Translations under genes and position numbers: made by a program
From: Strigamia acuminata
Taxonomy: Eukaryota
DNA length: 64,000 nt
Direction of reading: 5' to 3'
Assembly (NCBI GenBank): GCA_949358305.1
Contig: OX442314.1
Span: 5,642,001 to 5,706,000, forward strand
Part shown: piece after piece, positions 6,377 to 61,681 of the stretch
Layout: each line of letters begins with the position of its first letter
Numbering within the stretch: the stretch's first letter is position 1
The notes under the pieces: generated by a model
Database searches by the model: none
Told to the model about the DNA's origin: nothing
What the model saw: only the letters and a program-made list of their open reading frames with translations

Positions 6377-7160
6377 CTTTCCCTTTACAAAGACCGATTT
6401 ACCACTTTGCAAATGTTCAAAGATAACCCATGAACTATACGGTATTGCAAATCGTTTAATTGAAACTACCGATCCAACTGCTGATTGTCTATGTCAACGT
6501 CCATGCGAACAGTTAATGTTTATACCATCCACTGATGCAGCCATAGCAGATGATAAAAACACTGTATCCGCATCGTTAGCAATAACTAATAATAAAATCA
6601 ATGTGTATGAAGAACGGTACACATATGATGTTATTGCTTTACTATCAGATTTAGGAGGCAATTTGGGCCTATTTCTCGGTCTATCTTTAACTTCGTTGCC
6701 TGAAATCGCTTGGTATATAGCAAAGATTTGGAAAAAAAGACCAGTTAATCCGATTCGCCGTGTTTACAACAAATGCACAAAGAATATAATTGAGAGTCAA
6801 AAGCAAAGTAAAAGAAATGTAATATCACTTGATCTTAAGACAATTCTTGTTATAATTTGCTCGGGAGTCACTTTGTACTGCTTGCAAATTCGTGTAAACT
6901 ACTACATTGAAGAACCGGTAACAAAAATTGTGAGAATAGTTCCACGACGCTTTACCGAATTTCCGTCTGTCACAATCTGTGGTGAACCACAAGATGATGC
7001 TATTGATGAAGCCACATTGAATTTAATGAAACAGACTAACAGGACCTGCGATAACATATCACCGTGGCATTTGTTCAACAACAATTTATCGTTGGATGAA
7101 ATCTGGGAAAAACTCAACATCCATGAAACAGTCACACTTAATAATGAATTAGCTGATACG
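6377..7160 (+). CDS. DEG/ENaC gene A, junction exon: thumb/knuckle and TM2 of subunit 1, linker, TM1 and start of ectodomain of subunit 2
   Basis: tttgcaag| acceptor and |gtatat donor; CLCQRPC, YEERYTYDVIALLSDLGGNLGLFLGLS (TM2 with GxS), then KTILVIICSGVTLYCL..YY..P..FPSVTIC with no stop. Confidence 0.9.
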
Positions 7161-7219
7161 GTATATTTCTTAATATAACGATGACTAAAATATTATATTA
7201 AATTATTTAATATTTATAG

Positions 7220-7304
7220 TATTTTCGTGGATATAAAACAATACTTAATGCATCAAAAAGTCTTAAACCCCTTCCTTTTGGACATTGTACACAAGTAAAT
7301 TCAG
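7220..7304 (+). CDS. DEG/ENaC gene A exon (subunit 2, FGHCTQVN motif)
   Basis: tttatag|...|gtacgt; open frame YFRGYK...PFGHCTQVNS matches the GxCxxFN motif; conserved in copy B. Confidence 0.8.
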
Positions 7305-7997
7305 GTACGTATTTCTCAAACACATATGGATCCAGTCTCTTAAGTTAGTTTTAATGGGCCCGAATTTCTCACGTTTATTCATAACATCAGATGCCTAATT
7401 TGGAAATTCACACTAGGTGCATTCAAAAACTCTAAAACGTATGCAAAACTCGTTTCGTGTTTGTACGTTACGTCATTCCCATGGATGTACTTCATTTTAG
7501 CGATTTTATTTTAGCGACAGTGCTGGACTGGCAAGGCGGGCTACCGGGAGTTTCCCGGTGGCCCGTGGCTCGGTGGCCCGTGGCCGACCCGCTCGATCCG
7601 CCGTCGCCCGTCCCGTCCCGATCCGCCGTCGCCCGTCCCGTCCCGATCCGCCGTCGCCCGTCCCGATCCGCCGTCATTCGTCCCGTTATACAGTATATAG
7701 CATGTAGTTTTTTTGTAATAAGTATGACGTCTACATTATTGCGCAATGCGCATGTTCAATTTAAAAGCATTCTGGTTCTGCACATCCGGACTGGTGTCAT
7801 GGCGTCATGCTCTCACCATCGCCGTCGCCAAGAAGAACCAGTTTGCACATTGGTTATATACATCATAAACACAGCAAACATCAAAGAAAATTATGATTTT
7901 CTCTTTGTATAAGGTATTTTGAACATATTTATTTACAAGTAGGATTTAAAAAATGTGATTTGATTCTAATTATGTAGGATATTTAAAACACTTAAAA

Positions 7998-13191: not shown

Positions 13192-13253
13192 AAAATACAA
13201 ACAACCTAATAGTTCCTCTCGTTTTTGGATTTGAATTTCTAATTCCTTCAGAA
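13192..13253 (+). CDS. DEG/ENaC gene A candidate exon (subunit 2)
   Basis: ttttctag|...|gtatgt; phase 1 to 0 fits neighbours; ENTNNLIVPLVFGFEFLIPSE. Confidence 0.55.
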
Positions 13254-13423
13254 GTATGTAACCGGAATATAAAGGTATTGTAAAAGCTAAAATCATTAGA
13301 GAGAAAAATGCTTCAACAAAGAAGGGCTAGAGTCCGATCGACTGGATTCCTATTCACCCACAGGGTGACTAGATTTGGTGAATGAAAAACCTGGACAACA
13401 CACAATTTCTCAAAACATTAGTG

Positions 13424-14391: not shown

Positions 14392-14487
14392 TTATTCCTA
14401 AATAACATGAAAAGGGAAGTTAACTTTCTTGAATCATTGCCTACAGTCTATGGATGGATGAATAGTGCAATACTTCGAGTAATTACG
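14392..14487 (+). CDS. DEG/ENaC gene A candidate exon (subunit 2)
   Basis: ttactcag|...|gtaact; phase 0-0, 96 nt, open; size matches the 93-nt counterpart in subunit 1. Confidence 0.55.
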
Positions 14488-14565: not shown

Positions 14566-14675
14566 ATTGTGCGAAGAAATGCAAAGCGTAATCCATGTGA
14601 AGAAAACAAAACTGCTTATTTGGCGTGCAAAAAGGCTTGCATGAAAAACAATTTATTTAGAAGTATTAACTGCAG
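14566..14675 (+). CDS. DEG/ENaC gene A exon (subunit 2 thumb cysteines)
   Basis: aatag|IVRRNAKRNPCEENKTAYLACKKACMKNNLFRSINC(R)|gt; phase 0-2. Confidence 0.8.
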
Positions 14676-16048: not shown

Positions 16049-16427
16049 ATTACCGTACATGTCAGCATCTAATTTGCCAGATTGCAACACTACAAAAGCT
16101 GTTACTACCGCTCATCGAATGTACTTCAATAACTACGACTCGAATCAAAAAGAGTGCAAATGTAAACGACCTTGCGAAAATATTTTTTACCAAACTATGT
16201 TGTATGGGAGTAAGTTACCAGTTGACTACATTACGTTTATCACTGTTCGATTAGCTGATAGTTTCACCGAGAACATAGAAGAGAACGAGAAATATCCAAT
16301 TTCACAATTATTAAGCGATATCGGCAGCATTCTAGGATTAACTTTGGGAATGTCATTATTATCGTTCTACATTTGCATTCTAAACACTTTTAATTGGTTC
16401 AGAGTCTGTTTGGTAAATCCTCGTTAA
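16049..16427 (+). CDS. DEG/ENaC gene A terminal exon (subunit 2 thumb, TM2, stop)
   Basis: tttacag|; LPYM..LPDC..CKCKRPC..EENEKYPISQLLSDIGSILGLTLGMS..stop. Confidence 0.9.
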
Positions 16428-25602: not shown

Positions 25603-26061
25603 ATGGGAAGAAATATGCGAAGATTAAGAAAACTACGTACAAAAATTCAACTCCTGATAAAAGATGACGCCAACAAACCGAAATGCAGTTTAATTGGGCT
25701 GGATGATTTCGTAAACAGTAGAAAACATTGGAGCAGACGTCATACACTTTGGCTAATTTTGCTCCTATTTTGCACATGCATGCTCACTTATCAGACATAT
25801 GATCGAGTAATGCATTACTTAAGTTATCCAACAGCTGTTGATGTAAAGAGCAAATCGGAAGATATTGTGTTACCAAACTTAATGATCTGTAGTGGTAACA
25901 CAAAAGAAATGGCCAGACTTTGGAATAAAACTGATGACCATACAAGCCCTTATGAATGTTCAAACATGGTCAAACAACTGATGGCAATTCCAACTTACAA
26001 TATGGATGAACTTTGGAAAGCGACCAATTTGACCAAAGAGATAGTCAGCGTAAAAATGAAG
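25603..26061 (+). CDS. DEG/ENaC gene B first coding exon (N-terminus and TM1 of subunit 1)
   Basis: CSLIGL (HG-motif position), TLWLILLLFCTCMLTYQ..YLSYPT..LPNLMIC; donor aag|gtaaaa, phase 0. Confidence 0.88.
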
Positions 26062-26113: not shown

Positions 26114-26186
26114 GGATTCTCAAACCAAACGGTTGTTCTTACGGAAACTGACACTGCATTTGGAATATGCTCAACATTTCAATTTC
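26114..26186 (+). CDS. DEG/ENaC gene B exon 2 (TAFGICSTF)
   Basis: ttttccag|...|gtaatt; TxxGxCxTF family motif; phase 0-1. Confidence 0.82.
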
Positions 26187-26268: not shown

Positions 26269-26336
26269 CTGTAGCAACTAGCAAATCATTTAATCGGAAA
26301 TTATTGACAGCAAATATTGAAAAAACTGATGACTCC
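26269..26336 (+). CDS. DEG/ENaC gene B candidate exon 3
   Basis: ctgtag|...|gtatgc; phase 1-0, open; boundaries uncertain. Confidence 0.5.
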
Positions 26337-26563
26337 GTATGCCCTATAGCTCCGTACCTAGTAGGCTAATCTTACTAAATTATTTGTAATGTATCAGAAA
26401 ATGCAATTTTTCTTATTTACTGTATTTCTTCGATTACGAATCGTACTAGAATTATTCCAGGCAATTTTTCAAATGAATTTTAATTTTTTTAAACATATTT
26501 TAATGTAATAAACGTAGAAAGAACGTTGGAGGAGATTGCATTAGTGCTAAGTTCGTACATTTC

Positions 26564-26916: not shown

Positions 26917-26939
26917 TGTCACCGGTGCAGCGTGCCTAG

Positions 26940-27828: not shown

Positions 27829-27921
27829 TTCTACATGTCATTTTACGATTTTGGAAGAATTCTATACGTGACAACACAGAACCTTGGTGAAATATTAAAA
27901 ATAAATTTAGGGTTTGACAAA
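27829..27921 (+). CDS. DEG/ENaC gene B candidate exon 4
   Basis: catctag|FYMSFYDFG..LKINLGFDK|gtaaat; phase 0-0. Confidence 0.55.
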
Positions 27922-27986: not shown

Positions 27987-28093
27987 TTCATCTTTCTTAA
28001 TTCACTTATGAGTTCATGCTCCAGTGAAAACGAATACAAAAAATGCTATCATGGATGCTTAATGAAAAAATTTAAAAAACACCTGACTTGCAG
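27987..28093 (+). CDS. DEG/ENaC gene B exon 5 (subunit 1 thumb cysteines)
   Basis: ttttag|FIFLNSLMSSCSSENEYKKCYHGCLMKKFKKHLTC(S)|gtaaga; phase 0-2, joins in frame to 60754. Confidence 0.8.
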
Positions 28094-39052: not shown

Positions 39053-39076
39053 TTTTTTACTTGCAGTTTGGGGTAC

Positions 39077-39094
39077 TCCCGGGTTTCGGCACCA
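39077..39094 (-). promoter_or_regulatory. Primer-binding site, tRNA-Phe
   Basis: TGGTGCCGAAACCCGGGA 3 nt from the 5' LTR. Confidence 0.85.
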
Positions 39095-45895: not shown

Positions 45896-48101
45896 CGCTG
45901 GAGGACCACCAGCGCACGTTGCAGGGGGGGAGTCAGACTTGTGACGCTGGGGGGACCACCAGCGCACGTTGCAAGGGGAAACCGAACTCGTGATACTTGA
46001 TGATCACCAGCGCGCGTTGCTTGAGGGGGGGTCACCGGACGCTGCCGCCCAGTGACCACCCAGGCAAGGTAATTATTGTGAGCAGCCAATCAAGGCTGTC
46101 GTGGAAAGGGGGAGAAACCCTGGTTGTGTAAAATAAAGAGACACTTAAGATACAGTTGTCAAAAAGCAAAGACGTGTTTCTTGTCCGCTGTTTTCATTTC
46201 AAACAACATTCAACGAAAGTTCACAATGTCAATTCTATTGATGTGGTCATATAGGAAGTCGATGGTAGGCTATTCAGTGGTGACCTTAAATTTGACCCAG
46301 AAGGTCATTTTCAAGGTCATTCACTTTCTAACTTTTAAACCGTTTAAGATACAGCAAAATTTCCAAGTACAAAGTTGTAGAACACGATCGAGTTAGTACT
46401 ATCCAACTTATCTTAGACATCTTAATTTAAATGTTTTCATTTTAAAATGAAAACAAATCAGCTGAAGTAAAGCCAGCCATTGTGACAAAACTTAAATTTC
46501 TACTGCAAAAGTACTGAATTTCTTCAATAAATGTATTCAAATTTACTTGTTTACTTGTTTACTTGTAAACAAGTAAAGCCACTGTTTTTTTTTAATGTCT
46601 AAATTATTTTATTTTTATAGGAACAAAATATTTCAATTTGCTGATTTGTTTTCATTTTTTTAAAAAAACCTATTTTACTTAAAGTGACTAAGATAAGTTG
46701 GATAATACTAATTTGATAATGCTCTACAACTTTGTAATTGGAAATTTTGCTGTATCTTAAACGGTTTAAAAGTTAGAAAGCGAATGACCTTGAAGATGAA
46801 CTTCCGGGTCAAATTTAAGATCACCACTGGATAGCCCACCATCAACTTCCTATATGCCTACATCAATATAATTGATATATCTTCGGTTATTTCAAGAAAA
46901 AAAGGTGTTGTCACGGTCCTGACTTTAGACAGTAATAATTTTCAAAATTTTAAGCGCATTTTGCGCCTTTCCTTTAAATTTTCCCCAATCATATTGAGAA
47001 ATTGTTCTAGTTTCCCTAAATTATTTTATTTTTCCCAAATCTAAATTTATTATTTTATTTTATATTATTTTCCTTATTTTTGATATTTATCTTTAATTTG
47101 GCCTGGTTTTAATCACCCCATCCAGACAATTCATGAGAATTCTGCAATAAGTTGATATAATCGCGCTCTAAATTTACATATTTCACCCCTGATCGCCTGT
47201 TTTCTGCTCGGTCCCCATTGGAAATTGACTTGGCCTTTGACATGTGATCAGAGGTGACTTGTTCTGTCAAGACATTTTTGACAGAGAGAATAATTTTCGC
47301 CTTCGACTAGTCAACATCTTCTGTCTTAAACTGGAAGATTTCCAAGTGCGATTATGTTGCGTCTCAACGCATACGGTCACATTGCAGCCCGAATTCTCAT
47401 GTTAGTCTAACTAACCACAACATTTATTATTTGCCCATTATTTGCGTACAAATTACTGGAAAAACGGCGTATTCGACGGTCTCAATTCGTCAATACATTT
47501 TATGCCACGACTGTGACTTCCTCCTCGGCCTAGACATTTTGAACTCATACTCGTCTCAATTGCGTATTCATTTCATTATCGACGGTTCGACGACGTTGTC
47601 TGCGGTTTGGTACCTGTTTGCGCGTTCACCCAACGTTTGCGCGTATTCAGGAGAAGAAACATACTCTTCGTAAGTACGCCTAGCATATGACGACATTTTC
47701 CCTAGTGAAGAGCGATGTTTTGGTCTTAAAATTCGAAGTATCAACGTTCGCCATTTTGTACGGCGCCCGAATTGAATCCTGCACCCATAAAATACAGATT
47801 TCACGAATAGACGCTGTCTTAACCTAGCTACCACCCCCGGCAAAGTTTTAAGAGTTGCAGCGCCTGCGAACCTAAATTTTCTGGTTATTACAATCCCTGG
47901 AAATTCTTAAATTTCCGAAACCATTGTTAAAAAGTCGACTACGACGTGACAATCTTGGCGAGCTAGACAGGATTCAACTCGAAACGTGTTCTAAGAGAAC
48001 ACAAACCACCATTTTCTTCAGTGAAGACTACGCAAGTATAGGTCGTTATATTTATTTGATTAATTACTTATTTTTGCCGGCACACATATTATTATTTCAA
48101 C

Positions 48102-50018
48102 ATGGCTTCACGCGACGCTTTGTCGCAATCCAGTGTTTCGGACGTAGAAGCCGAACAAGCGCATACTTTGCCACTTCCAGACTCACCAACACATGAGCCG
48201 GACCAACAGCAGGATCTACTAGTACAACCAATCTCTACTGATGTACCATTTTCCAATCCTTGGAGGACATACGCTCAAATGGAAGCGGATCAACTCCAAC
48301 ATGAACGGGAAGCGGCTGCAGCACGGGATCAATGGGAGGAAAATAGACGCCATTTGCAGGACTCACTCATGGAGAGAAGACAAATAGTGGACGGGATGCG
48401 AGCGGTTCGAGAAGATATTCAACGAGGACCGCCGCCTCCTTACCAACCTGCGTTTATGCAACCGGAACCACAACAACATCGAAGGAATCCACCTGCACTG
48501 ACGATGGAAGCATTGATGAGAGTGTTACGAGAGGATAGAAGGGAGTTACAGCACGAACTTCGCCAGGAGTTGCTCGAGTCGATGAGGCAAATTAGGCGCG
48601 AGCTGAACGACAGAGTGGAGGAATTTATCCATTCGCACAACGAGCGAACTCAGCCTGAACCACCAGCACCAGAAGCAGGTTCAGGGGCCACACGTCGTGG
48701 TCGAGAGGGCGCTCGGGGAGCCGACTTTTCTTTTGGAGATACTGGACGTGCATCGGGACCACGACGCACTGGCTCTTATTCTCCGAGACGACGCCAACAA
48801 CATTCACAACAGGGAGACACGACTTCCAATGTTCCACGGGACCCACCACCGAATCCTGACCCGGATTCCGCTCAAGGAGGTAGTCAAGGCATACCACTCA
48901 GCGCCTCAAGACAGCTGCCTCACACGAGATCTCAACTCTCGTTGGAGTCGGAAGATCAGCGTCAAGCCGCTCAGGTTGGAAGGTATAAACTTAAAGTTGA
49001 AAAAATTCCATACTTTGATCCGGATGAGGCTACTTTCGACACAGTGGACCTGTTCCTGGGTAAGCTATATGCGCACATGTTTACCATGGGAGCACCGGAG
49101 GGAATATATTTGAAAGTATACGTGGTTCTCGCGCTCCGAAATAGAGCGCAACGTTGGTGGATGGCTCTAACTCCAAAACCTAACAATTGGGAGGACTTTG
49201 AATTAATTTTCAGGCAGGTATTTTCCATCAATTCAGCTTTAGCTAATGTTAAGTTGTCTCAGCGCAAACAAAAGCCAGGGGAATCAACTATGTCGTTCCT
49301 CAGCGAGATGATTCATTATTTAAATATTGCTGGATACAAGGACAAGGGCTTGCAGTGGGAACGAGTTCAGGGCATGATGCAAACTCAAGTCGTACAATTA
49401 ATGCGCTCTTGGTGCATCAGGACGATCGACGACGCAGTCAAAATGGGCAACGATGTCGATAATCGCCTTCAATTGGATTCGTTGCGGACTTTTGAGTACA
49501 AACAGTGCGGAGTTTCGGACCAGGAGATGCCTTTACCCGCAGGAGTGGGTCCTGCCACACGCACCAGAACAGAGGAGGAGAAGTTAAATCAACAATCTAC
49601 TTCGTCCAGGTCTGGTCGTTTTTCAAGATTCAACAAAGTATTTACAGCATTGCTCGAGGACATGTCGGCGTGCGCGCTCGATCCAGAGGATCCCAACAGC
49701 GAGGAAACCAATAAGGACCCGCCAAAGGAGTCTGCATCAGCGGCAGCACAAAAATCTGATGTCCACGCCATGACTGCGACTACTGCGCCAACACCTAGAA
49801 CGGATACACAGCACACATGTCCCAAGGACGTTGTCATTTTTCCAGCCGCTAAAGAAGCGCCTTCAGAGCCAAAGCTCCCGAAGAATGCTATGTGGAGAAA
49901 AACACCAACGGACAAATGGTTTATGTCCGACAGGCAATCATGGAGGCCTGTGTGCCCCGTTTGTGGCAAGGAATGGAGTCGTCAGTCGGGAAACGCAAGC
50001 GGCCTGCTCAAAGCATGA
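48102..50018 (+). CDS. gag: Gypsy-3 Gag, 638 aa
   Basis: Capsid-like AQRWW..WEDF..F..RKQKPGES; first ORF after the PBS. Confidence 0.88.
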   Translation: MASRDALSQSSVSDVEAEQAHTLPLPDSPTHEPDQQQDLLVQPISTDVPFSNPWRTYAQMEADQLQHEREAAAARDQWEENRRHLQDSLMERRQIVDGMRAVREDIQRGPPPPYQPAFMQPEPQQHRRNPPALTMEALMRVLREDRRELQHELRQELLESMRQIRRELNDRVEEFIHSHNERTQPEPPAPEAGSGATRRGREGARGADFSFGDTGRASGPRRTGSYSPRRRQQHSQQGDTTSNVPRDPPPNPDPDSAQGGSQGIPLSASRQLPHTRSQLSLESEDQRQAAQVGRYKLKVEKIPYFDPDEATFDTVDLFLGKLYAHMFTMGAPEGIYLKVYVVLALRNRAQRWWMALTPKPNNWEDFELIFRQVFSINSALANVKLSQRKQKPGESTMSFLSEMIHYLNIAGYKDKGLQWERVQGMMQTQVVQLMRSWCIRTIDDAVKMGNDVDNRLQLDSLRTFEYKQCGVSDQEMPLPAGVGPATRTRTEEEKLNQQSTSSRSGRFSRFNKVFTALLEDMSACALDPEDPNSEETNKDPPKESASAAAQKSDVHAMTATTAPTPRTDTQHTCPKDVVIFPAAKEAPSEPKLPKNAMWRKTPTDKWFMSDRQSWRPVCPVCGKEWSRQSGNASGLLKA

Positions 50019-53000
50019 GTCCAGAGAGCGGGTCGGATACAATCATCAAGGACTCTACTGAGAAGAAGACTGAAGAATCACCAGACGTCGATAGAAGTAC
50101 AACACCGTCTACTCCGACACCAGAGGCGCCGTCTGCTGTTCGAGAAGACAACAACAAATCATTAACCCCGTCTACGGACATTAAATTAACTACATTAATC
50201 AAAACAGATTCAAGTAAATCAAAAATAAAAATACCCGGTGTCGTAACACCACAACCAACAAAATCAGCGCAACTTTCGTCTGTGAAAGCCAAGGAAACCC
50301 CCAAAAAACCAACTTCGTTGACAACGCAGAGTGAGACGTTGCAAACAAACTTCGTTCTTTTGTCGCCCGAGGAATTGCAAAAATCCGAAGAGCCAAGAAT
50401 CGAAATTACGAAGACTGATCGCTTCAACAGAGAAGCACCATATATCAAAATAACATGGGCTAGCGTGAGTTTTGTCGCACTTTTGGATTCAGGCGCTCAG
50501 ACATGTGTAATGTCAGAGTCATTATTTAACAAACTTAAAGCCAATATGGGTTTGGAATTGCTCGAACTTCACGAAACAGTGCGTACAGCGGCCGATGACA
50601 AAATTCCAGTTAAGGGATCTGTTAAACTGTCGGTGCGCGCACCTTTGGCCGTTATTTCTTTCATTTGTTTAATTATACCCAAAACATCAGAGGACCTTCT
50701 GCTGGGAAGAGATTTCTGCAGAGCGGTTGGTCTGTGCACGGACTTTGAATTGTGCCAGTGGTATTTGAAGGGATCGCCGGAGCGAAGACAATTCATGACT
50801 TTAGAACAAGCTAACAAGTCAGAATCTGTTCTTTTATTTCCCATCAAGAAGCCCGATGATACAAAGAATAGCGCTAAGGATGTACCCAAGGTAGTAATTA
50901 ATAACATTAATTGTATTCTTCTAGAACATCGATCTTTGTCGCAAGAGATTTTCGAATATCCAAATGACGATGCTCAGCACCAAATCAAGAGGATTCGGAA
51001 TCGTACACGAGATCAGTGGTCATTTATATGGTCACCAAAGAGGAAGGATTCCATTAAAAAATCAAGAAGATTCAATTCATCATTGTTTTCGACGCTTAGC
51101 CAACGCAGACGTGCAAGACGACAGCGGAGACGCCTTTATGAATTGTCACCAACAATAAAACAACTTAACACGCAGGGAAGACAGCTTTTGCGTCGTGTGG
51201 ATGAAAATGCGCTCATGGCCAGAGTACACGATCATTCGACGATTTCGGAGCCGCCTCTGGATGTTAACGTACTACAATATCAACCAAGCAGTGATCCAAC
51301 GCAACTGGATTGGATTTACGACCAGCTGTGGTCATCATTGACGGTACCCCAAATTCGTTTATTAATTCAGACTCTTCGACCAATTTCGAAAGTATTTCGT
51401 GAGGAGGTCGGATTATGTAACAACACTCAGTTTGAAGTAAATTTAAAACCGGACTTTAGACCAATTCATGTGCCTGTAAGACCCGTTAACCCAGCAAAAA
51501 AGATGGTAATTGACGCTTATTTGGACCAAAAACTAAAACAAGGCATTATTCGTCGATCAAAAAGTGATTGTGCGGTGGCGCCTGTTGTTGTTCCAAAGAA
51601 GACTGGAGACTGGCGTACAGCCATGGATTTTAGACCGATGAATGCTCAGACTTTACCCGATGTCTACCCACTGCCCGACATCGATAATATATTTTCTTAT
51701 TTAGGAGGATCAAATTGGTTTTCGATCATAGACGGACGAGAAGCTTTCCACCAGATTGGAGTGCGTCCAGGTGACGAGAGATTTCTCGCATTTATTACGC
51801 ACAGAGGACTTTTCGAATATGTGAGAATGCCATTTGGACCCATTAATGGCCCAGCAACTCTGCAGAGAGCCATGAACAAAACTTTGTCGAAATATCTTTA
51901 CAAGTTCGTGTTCGTTTATCTCGATGACGTCATAATTTTCAGCAAGACTTTCGAGGAGCATGTACAACATCTCAAAATAATTCTTCAAGCCTTGGATGAG
52001 GCGGGATTCACGATGAACGCCAACAAGACGGAATTGTGCAGAACATCGCTCGAGGTTTTAGGACATATTGTAGAGGCTGGACACATTAAACCAAACCCAA
52101 ATAAGGTGACGGCAATTCAATATTTTCCGGCGCCTACCAACATCAAAGAATTACAAAGATTCAAAGGAATGATTGGTTATTATCAGTCATTTTTTCCAAA
52201 TTATTCAAAAACATGCGAGGTGTTTCGCCCTTTGCTCAAAAAAGATTCTGAGTGGAATTGGACGATCCAACACCAAGAAGCATTTAATTCACTCAAGAGA
52301 GGACTGGCTGAACCAACTCTACACCGAAGATTCCCAGATTGGACCAAGCCATACATACTGCAAACAGACGCCAGCTATTCAGGTTTGGGCGCTGCACTCA
52401 TGCAATTAAATGATCAAGGTGAACGAACACCAATTGCCTTTGCATCACGTGCATTGAATTCTGCTGAAAAGAATTACAGCGTTACTGAAATTGAATGCTT
52501 GGCGGCGGTTTGGGCGGTCAAAAGATTTCGTGTATATCTTGAGATGATGAATTTTTATTTAGAAAGCGATCATTTGTCGTTAAAGTGGCTTTTCCAGCAG
52601 CGAGAACCAAAAGGACGCCTGGCACGATGGGTTCTGTCCCTCAGTGAGTACAAATTTACATTTCTTTACTGCTCAGGAGCCCAGAATCGTGTTGCGGATG
52701 CCCTTAGCCGTGCGCCTGTGGAACCATCGGAACCATTGGATGCAGACGACTCGCCTCTCGTTGATGAAACATGCTACATCGCCTATTTTGACGACCCAAA
52801 TGATTGGCCAAAATTACCAATAATCAACATTATTGGAGTTGGATTGGCTGCGGCACAACAACGAAATAACGCAGCTGTGATGACAAGAGCGCAAAGACGA
52901 CAGCAGCAAATTAAACCAAAATTGGGCAGGCCAAAAGGTTCTAAAAACAAGAAGAGACCGCCACCAAATTATCAGGTATTAACTCGAGCCAGAGCGCGTC

Positions 53001-54760
53001 AACAGAAGCAAGTTTCGACGCCTCCTGGAGCTGTTGCGCCATTACCACCTTTAATACCGCCATTGCCATCACCAAATATGCCAACTGCATTGTTTCCGAC
53101 TCCTAATGTGTTGAGCCCACCTGCAGGACCATCTGGAGCTGCGCGACCGAATTATGACGGATATGGAGGTCCGGATTCGGATTCGTCGGACGATTCGACA
53201 ACTTATCAACCAGCATGGATGGGGCGTGCAGGATTTATGCCACAGCAAGTGCGTCAAGATCGATCACAATTTCAAAGAAATGCGACGAGACGCCCTGTTG
53301 CTGATGAACAACAAGACGAAGAAGAGGACGAGGCCGAGCGACTCCATGAGGCGCCGCAGGACCACCAACCATTTCGTCTGATACCAACTATTAACGAAAT
53401 AATTCGTCGACAACACGAAGACACGTGGAGCGCCGAGTTAATCGAATATCTTGATCAAGGACATTTGCCCAACGACCAAGTACAAGCAGCGCGTATCAGG
53501 CATCGTGCCGTAGATTTTGCTATGTACAAGGGAATGTTATGTCGTTATCCACCGATTGACATAAATAAAATTCGCCGTAGAAGACAAATCTATTTGCCCC
53601 TAATGTTACGCGAACAATATTTCAAGGCTCTGCATTACCCGCCGAGCTGCGGACATTTAGGAGTTGAGAAAACACTTCATCGACTCCGGGCCCGAGTTTA
53701 TTGGCCAAAAATGAAGGAGGACGTTTTGCTTTGGATTCAAAAATGTGAACCATGTCAACGAGCTAAGCCGTTAAATCGCCTTCCATATGGACCAATGATT
53801 ATGGCCAAACCACGACATTTGTTTCACACAATTTACATCGATTATTATGGTAAGAAACCCCGATCGATTGGAGGACATTGTTACGCATTAGTAATTGTGG
53901 ATGCCGCCAGTCGATGGTTGGATGTGAGATTGACCGAGACATCTGACTGGAAAACAACAATCAAACAATTGCAAGGATTTATTCAGCGATGGGCATTTCC
54001 AAAAGTTATTATAAGTGACAATGCGCCAGCTTTCCGATCAATGGAATTCCAGGCTGCATGTCAGAGTTTTGGCGCCATCAATCGCTACACGGCTGTTTAT
54101 CACCCACAGGGGAACTTAGCCGAAAGATTAAGCCAAGCATTGAAAAACTGCATTTTGGCATATATTGAAGAGCATGTGCGCTGGGACGTTCACATTGGAT
54201 ATTTTGTGCTAGCAATCAACTCAGCCTATCAAGCTTCACTTCGGTATTCTCCTTGTCAGGTGGTGACGGGACAAGAGGCGCGTTATCCAGGTGATTTCGA
54301 TTCGGACACCGACGATGGACAGCCGCTGCCGCCAGCACGAGCGCGAGAGACGCATGAATTGATGAGAGAATTGCGAAATAATGCCACTGCAAATTTACAA
54401 AAAGCTCAAATTAGACATAAACGTTGGTTCGATCGAAAAAGAAGACCACACGATTTCAAACCAGGCGATTTTGTGTCTATTAAAAATCGACAATTGTCAT
54501 CAGCGGACCGACAGTTTGCTGCAGGACTTCGACAGAGGACGGAAGGCGTTTACGTAATCCATAAATTAACTGGACCCAATACTGTCATTCTTATGGACAA
54601 GGATGGTCGTCGAATGCTGCCGTATAACGTCGTGGAATTGCGCCATTGGTTCAATAATGATGATGATTTGGACCAAACGGACGCAACAATGATCGAAAAA
54701 CATGTTGCTGCGTTTACATCGGAAATTGAAACCATTATCGCTTCATTTTCGATAAAATAA
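49988..54760 (+). CDS. pol: Gypsy-3 Pol (PR-RT-RH-IN) via -1 frameshift at G GGA AAC
   Basis: LLDSGA, YLDD, QTDAS, HHCC, IDYYG, SDNA, AERL; slippery heptamer 49988-49994 in the gag frame. Confidence 0.93.
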   Translation, partial: GKRKRPAQSMSPESGSDTIIKDSTEKKTEESPDVDRSTTPSTPTPEAPSAVREDNNKSLTPSTDIKLTTLIKTDSSKSKIKIPGVVTPQPTKSAQLSSVKAKETPKKPTSLTTQSETLQTNFVLLSPEELQKSEEPRIEITKTDRFNREAPYIKITWASVSFVALLDSGAQTCVMSESLFNKLKANMGLELLELHETVRTAADDKIPVKGSVKLSVRAPLAVISFICLIIPKTSEDLLLGRDFCRAVGLCTDFELCQWYLKGSPERRQFMTLEQANKSESVLLFPIKKPDDTKNSAKDVPKVVINNINCILLEHRSLSQEIFEYPNDDAQHQIKRIRNRTRDQWSFIWSPKRKDSIKKSRRFNSSLFSTLSQRRRARRQRRRLYELSPTIKQLNTQGRQLLRRVDENALMARVHDHSTISEPPLDVNVLQYQPSSDPTQLDWIYDQLWSSLTVPQIRLLIQTLRPISKVFREEVGLCNNTQFEVNLKPDFRPIHVPVRPVNPAKKMVIDAYLDQKLKQGIIRRSKSDCAVAPVVVPKKTGDWRTAMDFRPMNAQTLPDVYPLPDIDNIFSYLGGSNWFSIIDGREAFHQIGVRPGDERFLAFITHRGLFEYVRMPFGPINGPATLQRAMNKTLSKYLYKFVFVYLDDVIIFSKTFEEHVQHLKIILQALDEAGFTMNANKTELCRTSLEVLGHIVEAGHIKPNPNKVTAIQYFPAPTNIKELQRFKGMIGYYQSFFPNYSKTCEVFRPLLKKDSEWNWTIQHQEAFNSLKRGLAEPTLHRRFPDWTKPYILQTDASYSGLGAALMQLNDQGERTPIAFASRALNSAEKNYSVTEIECLAAVWAVKRFRVYLEMMNFYLESDHLSLKWLFQQREPKGRLARWVLSLSEYKFTFLYCSGAQNRVADALSRAPVEPSEPLDADDSPLVDETCYIAYFDDPNDWPKLPIINIIGVGLAAAQQRNNAAVMTRAQRRQQQIKPKLGRPKGSKNKKRPPPNYQVLTRARARQQKQVSTPPGAVAPLPPLIPPLPSPNMPTALFPTPNVLSPPAGPSGAARPNYDGYGGPDSDSSDDSTTYQPAWMGRAGFMPQQVRQDRSQFQRNATRRPVADEQQDEEEDEAERLHEAPQDHQPFRLIPTINEIIRRQHEDTWSAELIEYLDQGHLPNDQVQAARIRHRAVDFAMYKGMLCRYPPIDINKIRRRRQIYLPLMLREQYFKALHYPPSCGHLGVEKTLHRLRARVYWPKMKEDVLLWIQKCEPCQRAKPLNRLPYGPMIMAKPRHLFHTIYIDYYGKKPRSIGGHCYALVIVDAASRWLDVRLTETSDWKTTIKQLQGFIQRWAFPKVIISDNAPAFRSMEFQAACQSFGAINRYTAVYHPQGNLAERLSQALKNCILAYIEEHVRWDVHIGYFVLAINSAYQASLRYSPCQVVTGQEARYPGDFDSDTDDGQPLPPARARETHELMRELRNNATANLQKAQIRHKRWFDRKRRPHDFKPGDFVSIKNRQLSSADRQFAAGLRQRTEGVYVIHKLTGPNTVILMDKDGRRMLPYNVVELRHWFNNDDDLDQTDATMIEKHVAAFTSEIETIIASFSIK

Positions 54761-55290
54761 CTTAATTTCTTTTCATTTTATAATTTTATTTCTTTCTTTG
54801 CTTTGCCCAGCCTTCTTTCCTTCCTGTGTTTATAATTTTCCCTGCTTTAAACCAAATATTTACGGAGGATAGACGCTGAAAATAGTAAGTAAAGATTAGT
54901 TTAGGAATTTGAAATTCATCAATTTAAAATGATGATACAAAATTTACTAAGTCCAAACTCATGCTTCTTCGAAGTGCGTGATTAAATCTCGTTCACGCGA
55001 GAGGTCCGTGTCATATTTTATGACAAGGCGACCCCGTAGCGAGACCGCGTGTATTAAAGACATGTGAGGGCACGACTTAGCCACATTTTAATTTGCGTCT
55101 GAATAGTCGCGCCTCAAAAAACTTAACAATCACTTAAATTGGATAAATATTGTTAGAAATTGTGCGTCTATCACCCGTAAGTACTTTCTATCTCACAACA
55201 ATTCATTTTTAATTGAATATTTTCGTTAAAATAACTTTTTCTTTCTGGAAAATTTCCATTTCTTTTAGTTTCACTTTACGATAATTTATT

Positions 55291-58155
55291 ATGGCGTCCT
55301 ACGATCCAAAAGTAACAATTACGATTCCAAAACCAACGCAAAAAGGTTATCCAAAATACCTGCCGATGCCACCAATTGAAGCGTCGGGCGAAGGACTGGT
55401 GCCACGCTTTCATCCGGACCACCCAAACGACCAAAGTTTTCCAAACTATGAACTGTGCCCAGTTTGTAGCGGAACGGGATTTGAAATATACCAACTGCGG
55501 GCGCCACGAGAATGCCGAGCGTGTCGGGGCGGCGGTGACTTGCGTCGTTGCAAATTTCGGAAATGGATGCGCCTTATGTTCGCTTATGTATTGGGCTACG
55601 AGTCGATAGATAAAACTTCGTTGGCTGGAGTGGATTTTCCGCCGCCGAGGATTCCATTCGGCAGTGCAAACGCCATCGCTCGTTTTCGTCATGCACACGC
55701 GTCATATTTGGCACGCATAAAGCAATTGGCGAAGGAGAAGGGAATCCGGCCGTTAACTTGGAAATATCCAGAGGGAGCCTACATAATTGCCGGCGAGCAA
55801 CCTGCCGAGCTTCCGGACCAGTTTGTGACGCCTGAAGGAAAGACCTACGATGTGGAATCGGGTATAGAACTGTATTTGACGGCGCCTAATGTAATCGCGG
55901 ATGCGAAAAGAGCGTATTCGGAGCCGGAGAGAGTTGCGGCCGATTTGCCGTTTCAACATTCAAATCTGCGTCCGCGACATACGTACGAGGAGCGGAGCAC
56001 GCACCGTTTGAAGGAATACACGCAGAAAGTAACGAAAAGGATCGGAGCAGAGGCGAACCGGGACACTCACTTCGTGACGGGACGATCCGGACCAGCATTG
56101 GACGTCTCTTCAGTCATCATTGAGGAAAACGGAGCGGTTGGTGGAGCGCCTATTGCGTCGCCTATCATCGAATCGACTAAAGAGCTTTCGTTGGGCGATC
56201 AAGTGATTAAAAAGGTAAAGAAGAATGAAGAAAACAGAAGAGAGAGAGAAAAAATTAGTAATATCAACACGATGTCGACCCCGATTATCAAAACGGAATC
56301 GAGTGTGACGGCGGCGGAGGCGAAGTCAACCAACGTTACTACGGTGACCACTGCTGCGCCAATTGTCATTCCTTACTTTTATGTCGTGAAGAACAAATCG
56401 TCTTCGATTGAGACGTCTGAATCAAGCCAAGCTGCTCGATCTGTCGACACCACTACTGTGACCCAATCGAATGTGACGCCCAAGATGATGACTTCAGTTG
56501 CTGCGACATCAGTGCCGATTACGTACTCCAAAATTGCAACTTCAAACACACAAATGGACACAATTGCTGATTTTAATACAAAACTAATTAAAGCTGATTT
56601 TTCCCCACAGGTTGACCGAGATATTAAGGCGTTACTAAACTTTACACCGTCTTCATCCATCGCGAATATCGCTGCCGAGATTGCGAGAGATGCGGAGGAG
56701 TGCGCAAAGATCCACGACGTCAAGAAATTGGAAAACAAGATTTCTAATCCAATTGCTAAGGCCATTTCAGCGGTCTCAAACGGATCAACGTCGTCTGAGG
56801 GATGCGCGTCTCTGAAGCCACGTTATCTCCAGGGATTCGACCGAAATGGATGTACGATGCGCCCAGACCGTATTTTCACTCAGATGTCCGAAATATTCCG
56901 GCGCCACGAGCTTGAGATACTGTACCCCATGGAGAACAGGGGTCAAGGACGAATCAACCTGAGATCGGAAGGATGGAGCGAACTCTTCAAGATGTCGATT
57001 AATTTGGATTTCAACGTCAGCGCCTCGGACTTCAAGACGGTCGTCGGAACGATTTTCGGACGCCTCGGGAACATCGCGAAGGAAATTGAAGCGAAAATGA
57101 CAAAGGACTGTACCGGAGACGAACACGCGGTCCATCACCTCATTGTGCACGCCGTGCACTTTAATTTAAAAGAGATCATCACCCAAATGCATCAGAGTCG
57201 TCGTGACGCTGTCAAACGATTTCGAGAGGCCGACGCGCTCAAAGAGGCCCAGCGACTGGAGGACGAGAAAAATGCGCCCGCCAAACCACCACTGGATCCA
57301 GAATTGATCATGACGGAGGATGAAATTAAGAACTTTTCAGAGAAAATTCTCATCGAACTGGCGCCTGAGAAATTGGTGCAACAATTCGAGGATGCGATTG
57401 CTGAGAATCCAAGATTGGCGGATCCCCGAACCAAATATTCGTTCAGATACGACCCCGTAATTGTGGCGGACACAGGAGTACTCGCCTCGGAGTTATCATC
57501 GGATGTGGATTATTCGATGTCGGATGTCGAATCGCTTCGCGAGTCAACGGGCGATGAGGAAAACCACAAGGCATTTCTGGCGGCGCGGGAACACGACAAA
57601 ATTGAAGTGATTCAGGTCGACGAGCCTTTCAGACTTCCTGGAGTAGGACGAGGCGGTGCAAAGGCTGGACGTCGATCGCCGTTGATGTCGAGGATGCCAA
57701 AAATGATTTTGACACCGCCAAAGGAGAGTGACGACAATACAAGCGAGGTTGTCACGCGTGAGAGTTTACGCGAACCGGTCGAACTGAAGCCTAAGGAGAA
57801 GCGTCTCGTGGAGCCAACCTGCGCGTTAGCAATTATGGAGGAGATTATCCCGATAGATGATATTTTCTACTCATTGCCGTGGGAGCCTAAAATCGAATTG
57901 GTCGTGGATTGGAGTGTTCTGACGCGCCTTTTCGAAACGATCATCTTTTCGGACTTGCAGCTTGACCACAGCGCGGGCGAAAAGTTATTGTCCATCATTA
58001 AACAGTATTATGTTGGAGATTTCCTGTACCGAGTGAACAGAATTAGCCAAAAATGTTACGCGACTTCTAAACAACAGGTGAGAGTGATCCTCGTGAAAAC
58101 AGCGCTTAGACTGGTCTATTATGCGATGGACGGTCAGGGCGCGTCTGCATTTTAA
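55291..58155 (+). CDS. Gypsy-3 ORF3, 954-aa protein of unknown function (not Env-like)
   Basis: Long uninterrupted ORF between pol and the 3' LTR; CPVCSGTG and CRACRGGG motifs; no signal peptide or clear TM helix. Confidence 0.85.
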   Translation: MASYDPKVTITIPKPTQKGYPKYLPMPPIEASGEGLVPRFHPDHPNDQSFPNYELCPVCSGTGFEIYQLRAPRECRACRGGGDLRRCKFRKWMRLMFAYVLGYESIDKTSLAGVDFPPPRIPFGSANAIARFRHAHASYLARIKQLAKEKGIRPLTWKYPEGAYIIAGEQPAELPDQFVTPEGKTYDVESGIELYLTAPNVIADAKRAYSEPERVAADLPFQHSNLRPRHTYEERSTHRLKEYTQKVTKRIGAEANRDTHFVTGRSGPALDVSSVIIEENGAVGGAPIASPIIESTKELSLGDQVIKKVKKNEENRREREKISNINTMSTPIIKTESSVTAAEAKSTNVTTVTTAAPIVIPYFYVVKNKSSSIETSESSQAARSVDTTTVTQSNVTPKMMTSVAATSVPITYSKIATSNTQMDTIADFNTKLIKADFSPQVDRDIKALLNFTPSSSIANIAAEIARDAEECAKIHDVKKLENKISNPIAKAISAVSNGSTSSEGCASLKPRYLQGFDRNGCTMRPDRIFTQMSEIFRRHELEILYPMENRGQGRINLRSEGWSELFKMSINLDFNVSASDFKTVVGTIFGRLGNIAKEIEAKMTKDCTGDEHAVHHLIVHAVHFNLKEIITQMHQSRRDAVKRFREADALKEAQRLEDEKNAPAKPPLDPELIMTEDEIKNFSEKILIELAPEKLVQQFEDAIAENPRLADPRTKYSFRYDPVIVADTGVLASELSSDVDYSMSDVESLRESTGDEENHKAFLAAREHDKIEVIQVDEPFRLPGVGRGGAKAGRRSPLMSRMPKMILTPPKESDDNTSEVVTRESLREPVELKPKEKRLVEPTCALAIMEEIIPIDDIFYSLPWEPKIELVVDWSVLTRLFETIIFSDLQLDHSAGEKLLSIIKQYYVGDFLYRVNRISQKCYATSKQQVRVILVKTALRLVYYAMDGQGASAF

Positions 58156-60753
58156 GAAAATAAAATTCATGAATTGACTTTGAAAACCTACAAGTGACTT
58201 TGCGCCTCGGACCCATATACGAACTGTTGTGTGTGTGTGGACTTTATTGTGATAATTGTGATACAAACGATAAGTGTTATAATTGTTTAAAATGTGATTG
58301 TTATACGCCTCGATGAAGATTTTTTACGTAAAGTTCCGTGAAAACTCAAACGCCTACGAAAGAAGATAATATTCGTTTGCGAACTTTTTATTTTTTGATA
58401 TTTATATTTTACTAATCATTTTTGCTAATCATTTTTATTAACCATTTGTGATCATTGAAATTTTGCTATCCTTATATTGTAATAATTGACGCCAAATCAG
58501 CGCCTAATCAATATTTTTATTTGCTAATAATTTACATTTTTATAGAAATTTTGCCACCCATAGGCATTGTTAATTAATCTTGAATTATTTTATTTTCTAG
58601 TCATAACACAAAGTACCATTGTTGATGTCAAGTGTTATCAAATAGTTTAACAAATTTTATAATTTTATTTAGAATTTAGTCGTAATTAGCGCCTAAACGT
58701 CTATTGATTTTGTTAATTTTTAATCAAACGATTTTTTACAATATTCCTCTCCTAAACCCATTTGTTTGTGTTTGTTTGTTTTTGTCTGTAATTGCGCCAA
58801 GTTGTGCGCCTGTTGCGTCTGTCCAAATAAATCCCTACCTGTGTTATGTGTTTATTATGAGATTAATGTTGTTGATTCATTATTTTTATTTATTTATATG
58901 TTCGAATTTTTATCAATCATGTTGTTAACTCCATTTAGATGTTGATTATATAAAAACCATATAATAAACATCTAGGTGGGGGGGAATGTCACGGTCCTGA
59001 CTTTAGACAGTAATAATTTTCAAAATTTTAAGCGCATTTTGCGCCTTTCCTTTAAATTTTCCCCAATCATATTGAGAAATTGTTCTAGTTTCCCTAAATT
59101 ATTTTATTTTTCCCAAATCTAAATTTATTATTTTATTTTATATTATTTTCCTTATTTTTGATATTTATCTTTAATTTGGCCTGGTTTTAATCACCCCATC
59201 CAGACAATTCATGAGAATTCTGCAATAAGTTGATATAATCGCGCTCTAAATTTACATATTTCACCCCTGATCGCCTGTTTTCTGCTCGGTCCCCATTGGA
59301 AATTGACTTGGCCTTTGACATGTGATCAGAGGTGACTTGTTCTGTCAAGACATTTTTGACAGAGAGAATAATTTTCGCCTTCGACTAGTCAACATCTTCT
59401 GTCTTAAACTGGAAGATTTCCAAGTGCGATTATGTTGCGTCTCAACGCATACGGTCACATTGCAGCCCGAATTCTCATGTTAGTCTAACTAACCACAACA
59501 TTTATTATTTGCCCATTATTTGCGTACAAATTACTGGAAAAACGGCGTATTCGACGGTCTCAATTCGTCAATACATTTTATGCCACGACTGTGACTTCCT
59601 CCTCGGCCTAGACATTTTGAACTCATACTCGTCTCAATTGCGTATTCATTTCATTATCGACGGTTCGACGACGTTGTCTGCGGTTTGGTACCTGTTTGCG
59701 CGTTCACCCAACGTTTGCGCGTATTCAGGAGAAGAAACATACTCTTCGTAAGTACGCCTAGCATATGACGACATTTTCCCTAGTGAAGAGCGATGTTTTG
59801 GTCTTAAAATTCGAAGTATCAACGTTCGCCATTTTGTACGGCGCCCGAATTGAATCCTGCACCCATAAAATACAGATTTCACGAATAGACGCTGTCTTAA
59901 CCTAGCTACCACCCCCGGCAAAGTTTTAAGAGTTGCAGCGCCTGCGAACCTAAATTTTCTGGTTATTACAATCCCTGGAAATTCTTAAATTTCCGAAACC
60001 ATTGTTAAAAAGTCGACTACGACGTGACAGTGTTTTCAGACTTTTGACTCACCCTGTATTTGTGTGATGGAACAAAATTTTTTTTAAAAAAGGTACATTT
60101 TAATAAATATAAGTTTCACCGATTGCACCAGAGCCATTAATTGAGTTTCCTAGCTGTTATACAGTCATGGATGCATCAGCATATTGATGATATACAAGGA
60201 TACGAGTTGGCCACTTAGATAGAGCTTGGATGCCTCCATTTTGTTTTGAGTTTCACAAGCCTCAAAATCACTTCTTATCAAAATCACAAAAACTACCTTT
60301 TAGATGTTTTTGGGATTTTGTGTTTTTACTCTCTTGTGCTTTAGTGAATGTGAATGTGATTGGTAGAACAGATATCACATGGCAATACTCAAAAATCACA
60401 AAGTTGTCCAGATCACACAATTGCAAAATTGACTGGGTTAATTCAATGTAATCCCATTTTTGTAGGCATCAAAAAATAATGATTTTGTGATTAATGCAAA
60501 ATCACAAAATTGCAAAATCATTCATATAATGAAACCCCCTATTGTATCAATACTATTAATGTGGTCAAATAGGATATCCAGTCGTGATCTTGAATGTGAC
60601 CCGGACAATCATTTTCAAGGTCGTATAACACCATCGAATTAGTACTATGCAACAATCTTCAGTCTTTTTCAAGAAAAATAGTGTTTCCAGACTTTTGACT
60701 CACCCTGTATAGTAAATTCAATCAAAATGTTAATAAAATATCTTCTTTGCAAG

Positions 60754-61537
60754 CTTTCCCTTTACAAAGACTGATTTACCACTTTGCAAATGTTCAAAGA
60801 TGACCCATGAACTATATGGTATTGCAAATCGTTTAATTGAAACTACCGATCCAACTGCTGATTGTCTATGTCGACGTCCATGCGAACAGCTAAGATTTAT
60901 AACATACACTGATGCGGGCATAGCAGATGATAAAAACATTATATCTGTGTCACTAGCAATAACTAATAATAAAATCAACGTTTATGAAGAACGTTACACA
61001 TATGATGTTATTGCTTTACTATCAGATTTAGGAGGCAATCTGGGCCTATTTCTCGGTCTATCTTTAACCGCCTTGCCTGAAATCGCTTGGTATCTATCAA
61101 GCATTTTGAAAAAAAGACCGGTTAATAAGATTCGCCATGTTTATGACAAATGCACAAAGAATATAATTGTGAGTCAAGAGCAAATTAAAAGAAATGTAAT
61201 TTCACTTTATCTTAAGACAATTCTGGTTATAATTTGCTCGGGAGTCACTTTGTATTGCTTGGAAATTCGTGTAAACTACTATATTGAAGAACCGGTAACA
61301 AAAATTGTGAGAATAGTTCCACGACACTTTACCGAATTTCCGTCTGTTACAATCTGTGGTGAACCACAAGATGATGCTATTGATGAAGCCACATTGAATT
61401 TAAAGAAACAGACTAACAGGACCTGCGATAACATATCACCGTGGCATTTGTTCAACGACAATTTATCATTGGATGAAATCTGGGAAAAACTCAACGTCCA
61501 TGAAACAGTCACACTTAATAATGAATTAGTTGATAAG
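60754..61537 (+). CDS. DEG/ENaC gene B junction exon (subunit 1 TM2, linker, subunit 2 TM1)
   Basis: Paralogue of 6377-7160 with the same 784-nt length and splice sites; LLSDLGGNLGLFLGLS then FPSVTIC in frame. Confidence 0.9.
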
Positions 61538-61596
61538 GTATATTTCTTAATCTAACCATGGCTCAAATATTATATTAAACTATTTAATATTTATAG

Positions 61597-61681
61597 TATT
61601 TTCGTGGATATAAAACAATACTTAATGTATCAAAAAGTCTTATTCCCCTTCCTTTTGGACATTGTACACAAATAAATTCAG
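61597..61681 (+). CDS. DEG/ENaC gene B exon (subunit 2, FGHCTQIN)
   Basis: 85-nt paralogue of 7220-7304. Confidence 0.8.

What the first reader, a model, noticed from the sequence alone, without database searches (positions are those of the whole stretch)
6377..61681. Two DEG/ENaC subunits fused in one polypeptide (natural 4-TM concatemer), in both paralogues
Seen: in one open exon (6377-7160 and 60754-61537) the canonical TM2 (LLSDLGGNLGLFLGLS) is followed, with no stop or intron, by a basic linker of about 40 aa, a second TM1 and a new FPSVTIC ectodomain start. A second TM2 (LLSDIGSILGLTLGMS) ends gene A. Joining gene B exons 1-7 to the later gene A exons gives 2316 nt in frame (about 771 aa, a composite of two paralogues). 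Known: DEG/ENaC/ASIC/ppk channels are trimers of 2-TM subunits. Inference: a covalent dimer cannot homotrimerise simply, so it may fix a 2+1 stoichiometry with a third subunit, link trimers together, or be cleaved at the basic linker.
Basis: partly seen in the sequence, partly recalled or inferred. Interest (0 to 1): 0.9.

Follow-up and report, generated by a model that had tools for sequence, protein, structure and literature searches.

The report
Naturally fused two-subunit DEG/ENaC channel
Two neighbouring genes, likely from a centipede, each carry the end of one DEG/ENaC ion-channel subunit and the start of a different one in a single open exon, so they are predicted to make a ready-joined two-subunit chain that would likely fix two of the three positions in a channel normally built from three separate chains.

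Summary
Confirmed and wider than reported. Exons 6377-7160 and 60754-61537 are open 784-nt exons reading TM2, a 38-residue basic linker, then a new TM1 and ectodomain. Both units repeat the same intron phases (0,1,0,0,2), so the junction exon is the last exon of one six-exon gene fused to the first exon of another. The units are 20% identical. The junction is shared by 13 Strigamia maritima gene models; unit 1s and unit 2s form separate clades, so the fusion is old and was amplified. The units differ consistently in a pore-lining position. An AlphaFold model of a full relative folds both units (pLDDT 78, pTM 0.73). The search also found three-unit single chains in shrimp gene models and short Logan contigs, probably a separate origin. 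Ten paper searches found no description of natural DEG/ENaC concatemers. Not shown: a transcript, a protein, a current, or the assembly. Neither gene is complete in the window. Best reading: an uncleaved heterodimer completing its trimer with a third subunit; main rival: three dimers forming two tethered trimers. Furin-type cleavage is unlikely because the linker is predicted cytoplasmic.

The parts
6377..7160 (+). Gene A junction exon: end of unit 1 (thumb end, TM2a), 38-aa linker (about 6720-6833), start of unit 2 (TM1b, FPSVTIC)
   Evidence: open 261 codons, AG/GT ends; two Pfam ASC stretches
7220..7304 (+). Gene A, unit 2 exon 2 (PFGHC)
13192..13274 (+). Gene A, unit 2 exon 3 (FEFLIPSEVC); acceptor chosen from three nearby AGs
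   Evidence: tblastn of T1JEH2; phase fit
14392..14487 (+). Gene A, unit 2 exon 4
14566..14675 (+). Gene A, unit 2 exon 5 (thumb cysteines)
16049..16427 (+). Gene A last exon with TM2b (LLSDIGSILGLTLGMS) and stop
   Evidence: Pfam ASC profile 329-449
25603..26061 (+). Gene B exon 1: ATG, N-terminal helix, TM1a, LPNLMIC
   Evidence: Pfam ASC profile 5-100; in-frame stop upstream
26114..26186 (+). Gene B, unit 1 exon 2 (FGIC)
26269..26360 (+). Gene B, unit 1 exon 3; acceptor chosen by length match to T1JEH2
27829..27921 (+). Gene B, unit 1 exon 4
27987..28093 (+). Gene B, unit 1 exon 5 (thumb cysteines)
28094..60753 (+). Gene B intron 5, 32,660 nt, holding three LTR retrotransposons; no alternative ENaC exon found in it
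60754..61537 (+). Gene B junction exon (89% amino-acid identity to A's)
61597..61681 (+). Gene B, unit 2 exon 2; the rest of gene B lies beyond the window

Best explanation
The two genes encode two different DEG/ENaC subunits in one open reading frame, predicted to make an uncleaved four-helix chain whose units would likely sit side by side in one trimer, with a third subunit likely supplied by another chain. Shown: the fused exon, matching exon patterns in both units, a conserved family, position-specific clades and pore residues. Inferred origin: two head-to-tail six-exon genes of different subunit types were joined by loss of the stop, spacer and start, after which the fused gene was duplicated many times. 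Inferred working: TM2a runs on as a cytoplasmic helix, turns, and enters TM1b, so both ectodomains face outside; the tether fixes neighbour order and makes an asymmetric pore (unit 1 DxGGN, unit 2 DxGS/N). The third place is likely filled by a free single subunit of the same clade. By kinship to BRTNaC1 and PDPNaC1 the likeliest role is a sensory cation channel gated by pH or another external cue; no gating stimulus was tested.
For: Intron phases 0,1,0,0,2 in both units. Units 19.8% identical; their sisterhood is rejected, p-AU 1e-9. Junction matches S. maritima T1JEH2 (57% over 97%), T1JGJ4 (54% over 99%), T1IYF0 (51% over 66%). 39 of the 150 listed hits carry a TM2-to-TM1 junction; 13 of 23 looked up are S. 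maritima. TM2-Asp to TM1-end spacing is 85-104 residues in 21 of 23 sequences. Unit 1s group 8 of 8 (SH-aLRT 92), unit 2s 9 of 10 (97). Second TM2 glycine kept in 14 of 14 unit 1s, changed to S/N in 7 of 8 unit 2s; this is three residues before PDPNaC1 Gly378, the pore constriction in PMC12714832. AlphaFold model of T1JD34: pLDDT 78, pTM 0.73, four long helices; best fold matches BRTNaC1 and PDPNaC1. All 9 N-glycosylation sequons lie in the two ectodomains. Engineered head-to-tail ASIC1a dimers gave currents (PMC4529235 passages). A single-unit protein with unit-1-like ends (P0021) lies in the same clade (support 83). Three-unit chains elsewhere fit fusion as a way of fixing trimer make-up.
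Against: No transcript or protein of the window's genes was seen. The S. maritima records are automatic gene models whose DNA I did not see, so hidden introns in their linkers are not excluded; several are fragmentary or merged (T1JEH2 has a duplicated N-terminus). The linker itself evolves without amino-acid constraint between A and B (dN/dS 0.96 on 15 changes) and has pLDDT under 50. A high pTM may reflect AlphaFold's memory of trimers, and I did not see the coordinates. The source of P0021 is unknown and no third subunit was tested. The tree is a quick LG+G4 tree with long-branch warnings. Engineered ASIC1a concatemers also gave shorter by-products.
Confidence: 0.55

Rival explanations
1. 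The uncleaved dimer needs no other gene: three chains build two tethered trimers (two intact pairs, each completed by one unit of a shared third chain), or larger arrays of linked trimers, clustering and perhaps coupling channels.
For: The family is mostly made of doublets among the close hits; the 35-54-residue linker is long enough to reach a touching trimer (inference); engineered ASIC1a dimers expressed alone gave currents; the linker is flexible in the model.
Against: Conserved linker length and the confident relative placement of the units (pTM 0.73) fit neighbours in one trimer; three-unit chains in other lineages suggest selection for complete trimers rather than cross-links.
Confidence: 0.27
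2. The long frame is a precursor or by-product: single subunits are made by cleavage, internal initiation, or splicing and polyadenylation inside the junction exon.
For: Linker sequence is neutral between A and B; many relatives have a Met in the linker; weak donor-like GT sites exist near 6713, 6819 and 6894 in both copies.
Against: A and B have no Met in the linker and no NPGP motif; no acceptor-like site met my pattern in the linker region and no alternative TM2 or TM1 exon was found among 2529 segments of the window; a cytoplasmic linker is not a furin substrate (established topology); if it were untranslated, stops and frameshifts should appear, but the only linker indels listed in other copies are 3 and 6 nt.
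Confidence: 0.1
3. These two copies are decaying or mis-assembled members of the family and make no working channel, or one of the two units is a non-conducting scaffold.
For: Introns are packed with transposons, one with identical 1043-bp LTRs on the sense strand; 600 bp after exon 7 are identical between A and B while the junction exon differs at 53 sites; some laid contigs show 1-nt indels in the unit-1 part of the exon; neither unit has a canonical HG motif.
Against: All 13 exons seen are open with canonical splice sites; dN/dS 0.36 overall, 0.15-0.22 in the helices; contigs of two public runs match the A junction letter for letter over 6680-6908 and 6680-6877; PDPNaC1 works without HG; cysteines are kept in both units (16 and 17).
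Confidence: 0.08

Closest known systems
BRTNaC1 (PDB 8YMR; PMC9974506) and PDPNaC1 (PDB 9JF7; PMC12714832), centipede DEG/ENaC channels
   Same: Best matches in the PDB by sequence and by fold (TM 0.70-0.71 over the target); same compact ectodomain, cysteine pattern and TM2 motif; PDPNaC1 also lacks HG.
   Different: They are single 2-TM subunits (431 and 421 aa) deposited as three chains per entry; only 20-22% identical to either unit; they fall outside the doublet clades.
DEG/ENaC/ASIC/pickpocket superfamily (Pfam PF00858)
   Same: Each unit is a complete ASC domain with TM1, cysteine-rich ectodomain and TM2.
   Different: Two different subunits are in one chain; unit 1 has no free C-terminus and unit 2 no free N-terminus; subunit count per chain does not divide into three.
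Strigamia maritima uncharacterised UniProt models T1JEH2, T1JGJ4, T1IYF0, T1JEG4, T1JD34, T1ITL7, T1J963, T1IPM9, T1JF29
   Same: Same TM2-linker-TM1 junction; T1JEH2 is the closest relative of both units (58% and 48% in the tree alignment).
   Different: Not described as fusions in any paper found; mostly fragmentary automatic models.
Engineered ASIC concatemers (PMC4529235, PMC10329638)
   Same: Head-to-tail joining of TM2 to the next TM1 through a cytoplasmic linker gives working channels.
   Different: Laboratory constructs that keep the full tails plus an added linker; here the join is natural, short and old.
Two-pore K2P and TPC channels, four-repeat Nav/Cav (recalled, not from a call)
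   Same: Natural internal concatemers that fix subunit order and allow an asymmetric pore.
   Different: Unrelated fold with four-fold pores, where two or four repeats divide evenly; a doublet in a three-fold channel does not.

Membership tests
DEG/ENaC (per unit) | ASC domain PF00858 | tested here: met
   junction exons, B exon 1 and A last exon all above the gathering cut-off
DEG/ENaC (per unit) | Two membrane helices around a large cysteine-rich ectodomain | tested here: met
   hydropathy, 16 and 17 cysteines aligned with BRTNaC1/PDPNaC1, model of relative T1JD34
DEG/ENaC (per unit) | TM2 motif DxGGxxGLxxG-x-S | tested here: met
   unit 1 SDLGGNLGLFLGLS; unit 2 SDIGSILGLTLGMS with G-to-S at the second glycine
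DEG/ENaC (per unit) | Pre-TM1 His-Gly motif (typical, not universal) | tested here: not met
   unit 1 has IG, unit 2 none; PDPNaC1 also lacks it
Canonical DEG/ENaC subunit (whole chain) | One 2-TM subunit per polypeptide with free N- and C-termini | tested here: not met
   two units in one frame; hence filed as a variant, not a canonical subunit
DEG/ENaC channel | Trimeric assembly | not testable with these tools
   dimer plus a whole third subunit exceeds the size that can be modelled here; no experiment
DEG/ENaC channel | Cation conduction and amiloride block | not testable with these tools
   needs electrophysiology
Natural concatemeric channel | Repeats carried on one mRNA and one uncleaved protein | tested here: inconclusive
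   single open exon and conservation but no RNA or protein data for these genes

The most novel reading that the evidence does not exclude
Arthropods have repeatedly turned trimeric DEG/ENaC channels into single-chain concatemers: an old heteromeric doublet family and a younger three-repeat family in centipedes, and an independent three-unit pseudo-trimer family in decapods; the centipede doublet, which cannot fill a trimer evenly, assembles alone into tethered pairs or arrays of trimers, a channel architecture not seen in this superfamily.
Probability: 0.27. Interest if true: 0.92.

Novelty: new variant of a known kind. Interest (0 to 1): 0.82.

Why it matters
DEG/ENaC subunits are treated as 2-TM chains whose heteromeric partners and order must be found by trial. 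A natural fused pair names two partners and their order, shows which pore positions diverge between neighbours, and gives one cDNA to express. It poses a clear two-into-three puzzle, and the three-unit relatives would be complete one-gene heterotrimers, ready for structure and for testing how asymmetry shapes gating and selectivity. It also warns that surveys which discard long multi-ASC models as annotation merges lose real genes. Centipede DEG/ENaCs already include unusual heat and proton sensors.

Tried and rejected
RNA evidence: no RNA holder listed for window 6300-7400; this is no evidence either way. The two runs listed are of unknown kind and were laid as contigs; their summed depth is not a copy number, so I use only contig counts; they may be the window's own source. 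Joints such as 6685-6953 were marked 'between: not known' and are read as diverged paralogues, not deletions. Single-sequence fold of T1ITL7 failed (pLDDT 33.7). A profile search with alignment A2 returned only its first member. The Atlas returned only single-unit ASC clusters for T1JD34 and P0145, which shows neither novelty nor absence. Earlier scan findings: none by sequence or words. Annotation-merge artefact rejected for the window because the join lies inside one exon; not rejected for the Polypedilum, Oedothorax and Helobdella multi-unit models, whose units are each other's closest relatives. Recent internal duplication rejected. A weak TM1-like hit at 60191-60448 (E 0.03 with one profile, 4.6 with the other) was treated as chance. 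No complex prediction was run: dimer plus third subunit exceeds 1000 residues and split halves would pass by likeness to solved trimers. The rest of this genome could not be searched, so gene A's first half, gene B's second half and free subunits in this species remain unseen.
Full report
Setting. The window is animal DNA rich in transposons. Its two DEG/ENaC genes lie head to tail on the + strand. The closest named proteins are all from the centipede Strigamia maritima at 51-57% identity, so the source is likely a centipede; that is inference from protein similarity.

Observation. Exons 6377-7160 (gene A) and 60754-61537 (gene B) are 784 nt, bounded by AG and GT and open for 261 codons. Each reads the end of a thumb domain, TM2 (LLSDLGGNLGLFLGLS), a 38-residue basic linker, a hydrophobic TM1 and FPSVTIC. 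Pfam ASC gives two stretches in each. Using T1JEH2 as a guide I modelled gene B exons 25603-26061, 26114-26186, 26269-26360, 27829-27921, 27987-28093, 60754-61537, 61597-61681 and gene A exons 6377-7160, 7220-7304, 13192-13274, 14392-14487, 14566-14675, 16049-16427. Two short exons have alternative acceptors, so the exact length is uncertain. B starts at an ATG behind an in-frame stop and A ends in a stop after TM2b, so by paralogy each gene has two units; neither is complete in the window. Profile searches of all 2529 stop-to-stop segments found no further ENaC exon that could end unit 1 or start unit 2 separately.

Origin. The intron phases run 0,1,0,0,2 through unit 1 and 0,1,0,0,2 through unit 2. 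The junction exon is therefore the last exon of one six-exon gene joined to the first exon of another. The linker lines up with the basic helix that precedes TM1 in unit 1 and in relatives, so it is probably the old N-terminal tail of unit 2. The units are only 19.8% identical, no closer to each other than to BRTNaC1 or PDPNaC1.

Selection. Between A and B the junction exon has dN/dS 0.36 (22.5 synonymous, 30.5 non-synonymous changes); TM2a 0.22, TM1b 0.15, linker 0.96 (small counts). So the linker's letters are free, while its frame and length are kept. A 38-codon stretch stays stop-free by chance with probability 0.02-0.04. Contigs of two public runs show further copies in this genome or its sample: 6-11 contigs carry other letters at each listed linker site, and the only linker indels listed are 3 and 6 nt; 40 of 354 variant rows were shown. 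None of the substitutions I translated singly (25, 20, partly the same sites) makes a stop. Some contigs show 1-nt indels upstream of TM2a and may be broken copies or misaligned distant ones.

Relatives. A phmmer scan of 1.84 billion representatives with the junction exon found 202 proteins and listed 150. With a profile built from 35 single-unit hits, 39 of the 150 carry a TM2 followed by a new TM1. Of 23 multi-unit hits looked up, 13 are S. maritima models, 2 Halocaridina rubra, 1 each Polypedilum, Oedothorax and Helobdella, and 5 Logan records, one clustering with a Penaeus vannamei protein; the other 16 junction-bearing hits are unnamed. Across centipede-like sequences at 19-28% identity to the alignment's first row the junction aligns, and the TM2-to-TM1 spacing is 85-104 residues in 21 of 23 sequences (one mis-scored, one unmatched). 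These are gene models, and I did not see their DNA.

Tree. From 122 units I chose 49 for IQ-TREE (quick, LG+G4). First units of doublets form one group (8 of 8, SH-aLRT 92) and second units another (9 of 10, 97), with long tips, so one old fusion preceded a large expansion. The window's two units as sisters are rejected (p-AU 1e-9). A second S. maritima subfamily (T1IU28, T1IZL2, T1ITG7, T1IL99) has much more alike repeats and at least three units in T1IU28 and T1IZL2. Four three-unit chains of 1244-1289 aa (two Halocaridina, two Logan) form their own clade (98) with position-specific groups (92, 98, 97). The Logan ones lie on contigs of 4.4-4.7 kb, which fits spliced transcripts, though the run type was not shown. 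A common clade of centipede doublets and these triples is weakly rejected (p-AU 0.031; groups named after a first tree, long-branch warnings apply).

Pore and fold. The second glycine of the TM2 motif is kept in 14 of 14 first units and is Ser or Asn in 7 of 8 second units. In PDPNaC1 numbering this is position 375, one turn from Gly378, which forms the pore constriction and sets selectivity (PMC12714832, section 10 read). Neither unit has a canonical HG motif; PDPNaC1 also lacks it. AlphaFold2 on the complete relative T1JD34 with a 66-row alignment gave pLDDT 78 and pTM 0.73, with long helices at 42-71, 359-411, 423-452 and 755-790 and a low-confidence linker; Foldseek's best matches are BRTNaC1 and PDPNaC1, covering half the query. 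A pTM of 0.73 over two equal halves suggests a defined packing of the units, but this may be learned from trimers and I could not inspect it.

Mechanism. Shown: one reading frame with two complete, different subunits, conserved as a family. Inferred: one four-helix chain with both ectodomains outside and a cytoplasmic linker. Furin-type cleavage would need a lumenal site; no NPGP skip motif and no linker Met exist in A or B. Engineered ASIC1a dimers, trimers and tetramers gave currents, with some shorter by-products (PMC4529235, passages; that paper argues for a tetramer, against the trimeric structures); ASIC2a/3 concatemers formed trimers (PMC10329638, passages). I favour a 2+1 trimer (0.55), with a free subunit such as the unnamed single-unit P0021 that sits in the same clade; three dimers making two tethered trimers is the main rival (0.27); processing to singles (0.10) and decay or artefact (0.08) are less likely. 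No stimulus is known; kinship to antennal heat and proton sensors is a lead only (PMC9974506, first of five parts read).

Novelty. Ten searches of the held library (listings and abstract starts) found no description of natural DEG/ENaC concatemers. Term searches in the S. maritima genome paper (PMC4244043, no ENaC term in the main text), a spider-mite ENaC survey (PMC5203786), an insect PPK survey (PMC8438182; it notes 46 PPKs with three to five predicted helices without calling them fusions in the passages seen), a lobster study (PMC7510291) and a Deg/ENaC phylogeny (PMC10507113) showed none. I read no supplements, where such models could be noted, and subscription journals are mostly absent. 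The sequences exist in databases as uncharacterised models. Verdict: a real feature, a new architectural variant of a known channel family, untested at RNA, protein and functional level.

Noticed in passing
P0145, P0114 (Logan), P0087, P0061 (Halocaridina rubra): Single chains of 1244-1289 aa with three complete DEG/ENaC units, position-specific clades and different TM2 motifs: candidate one-gene pseudo-trimers; Logan contigs are 4.4-4.7 kb. Related 1001-1093 aa chains (P0052/Penaeus, P0060, P0076) have a shrunken middle unit.
   Followed up: partly
P0005, P0006, P0009, P0017 (S. maritima T1IU28, T1IZL2, T1ITG7, T1IL99): A second centipede subfamily with closely similar internal repeats and at least three units, suggesting unit number changes by unequal crossing-over.
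   Followed up: partly
window 14676 donor to 60754 acceptor: The block from the junction exon to the thumb exon starts and ends in phase-2 introns, so it can be duplicated in frame; a read-through splice from gene A exon 14566-14675 to gene B's junction exon would also be in frame and give a three-unit chain. Speculative.
   Followed up: no
window 7297-7896 vs 61674-62273: 600 bp, nearly all intron, are identical between A and B while the upstream junction exon differs at 53 sites: recent gene conversion or crossover, or an assembly join.
   Followed up: partly
window 46909-60029: Gypsy-type element with identical 1043-bp LTRs and a 4-bp target duplication inside gene B intron 5; after gag and pol it carries a third ORF (55285-58152, about 955 aa) with no Pfam match.
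   Followed up: partly
window 33185-39711 and 40495-46225: Two more young LTR elements in the same intron: a BEL/Pao element on the minus strand (LTRs 99.2% alike) and a Gypsy-type element (99.7%).
   Followed up: partly
window 24078-24316: A 79%-identical relic of the start of gene B exon 1 and its upstream DNA, cut short: remains of another paralogue.
   Followed up: no
window 7959-10610; 11344-12332; 19579-23848: hAT transposase ORF and a 69-bp tandem array inside gene A intron; between the genes a copia-type gag fragment followed by about three copies of a 900-bp unit.
   Followed up: partly
P0021 (unnamed, 411 aa): Single-unit DEG/ENaC with a unit-1-like N-terminus and TM2 that falls in the centipede doublet clade: candidate free third subunit; source not determined.
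   Followed up: partly
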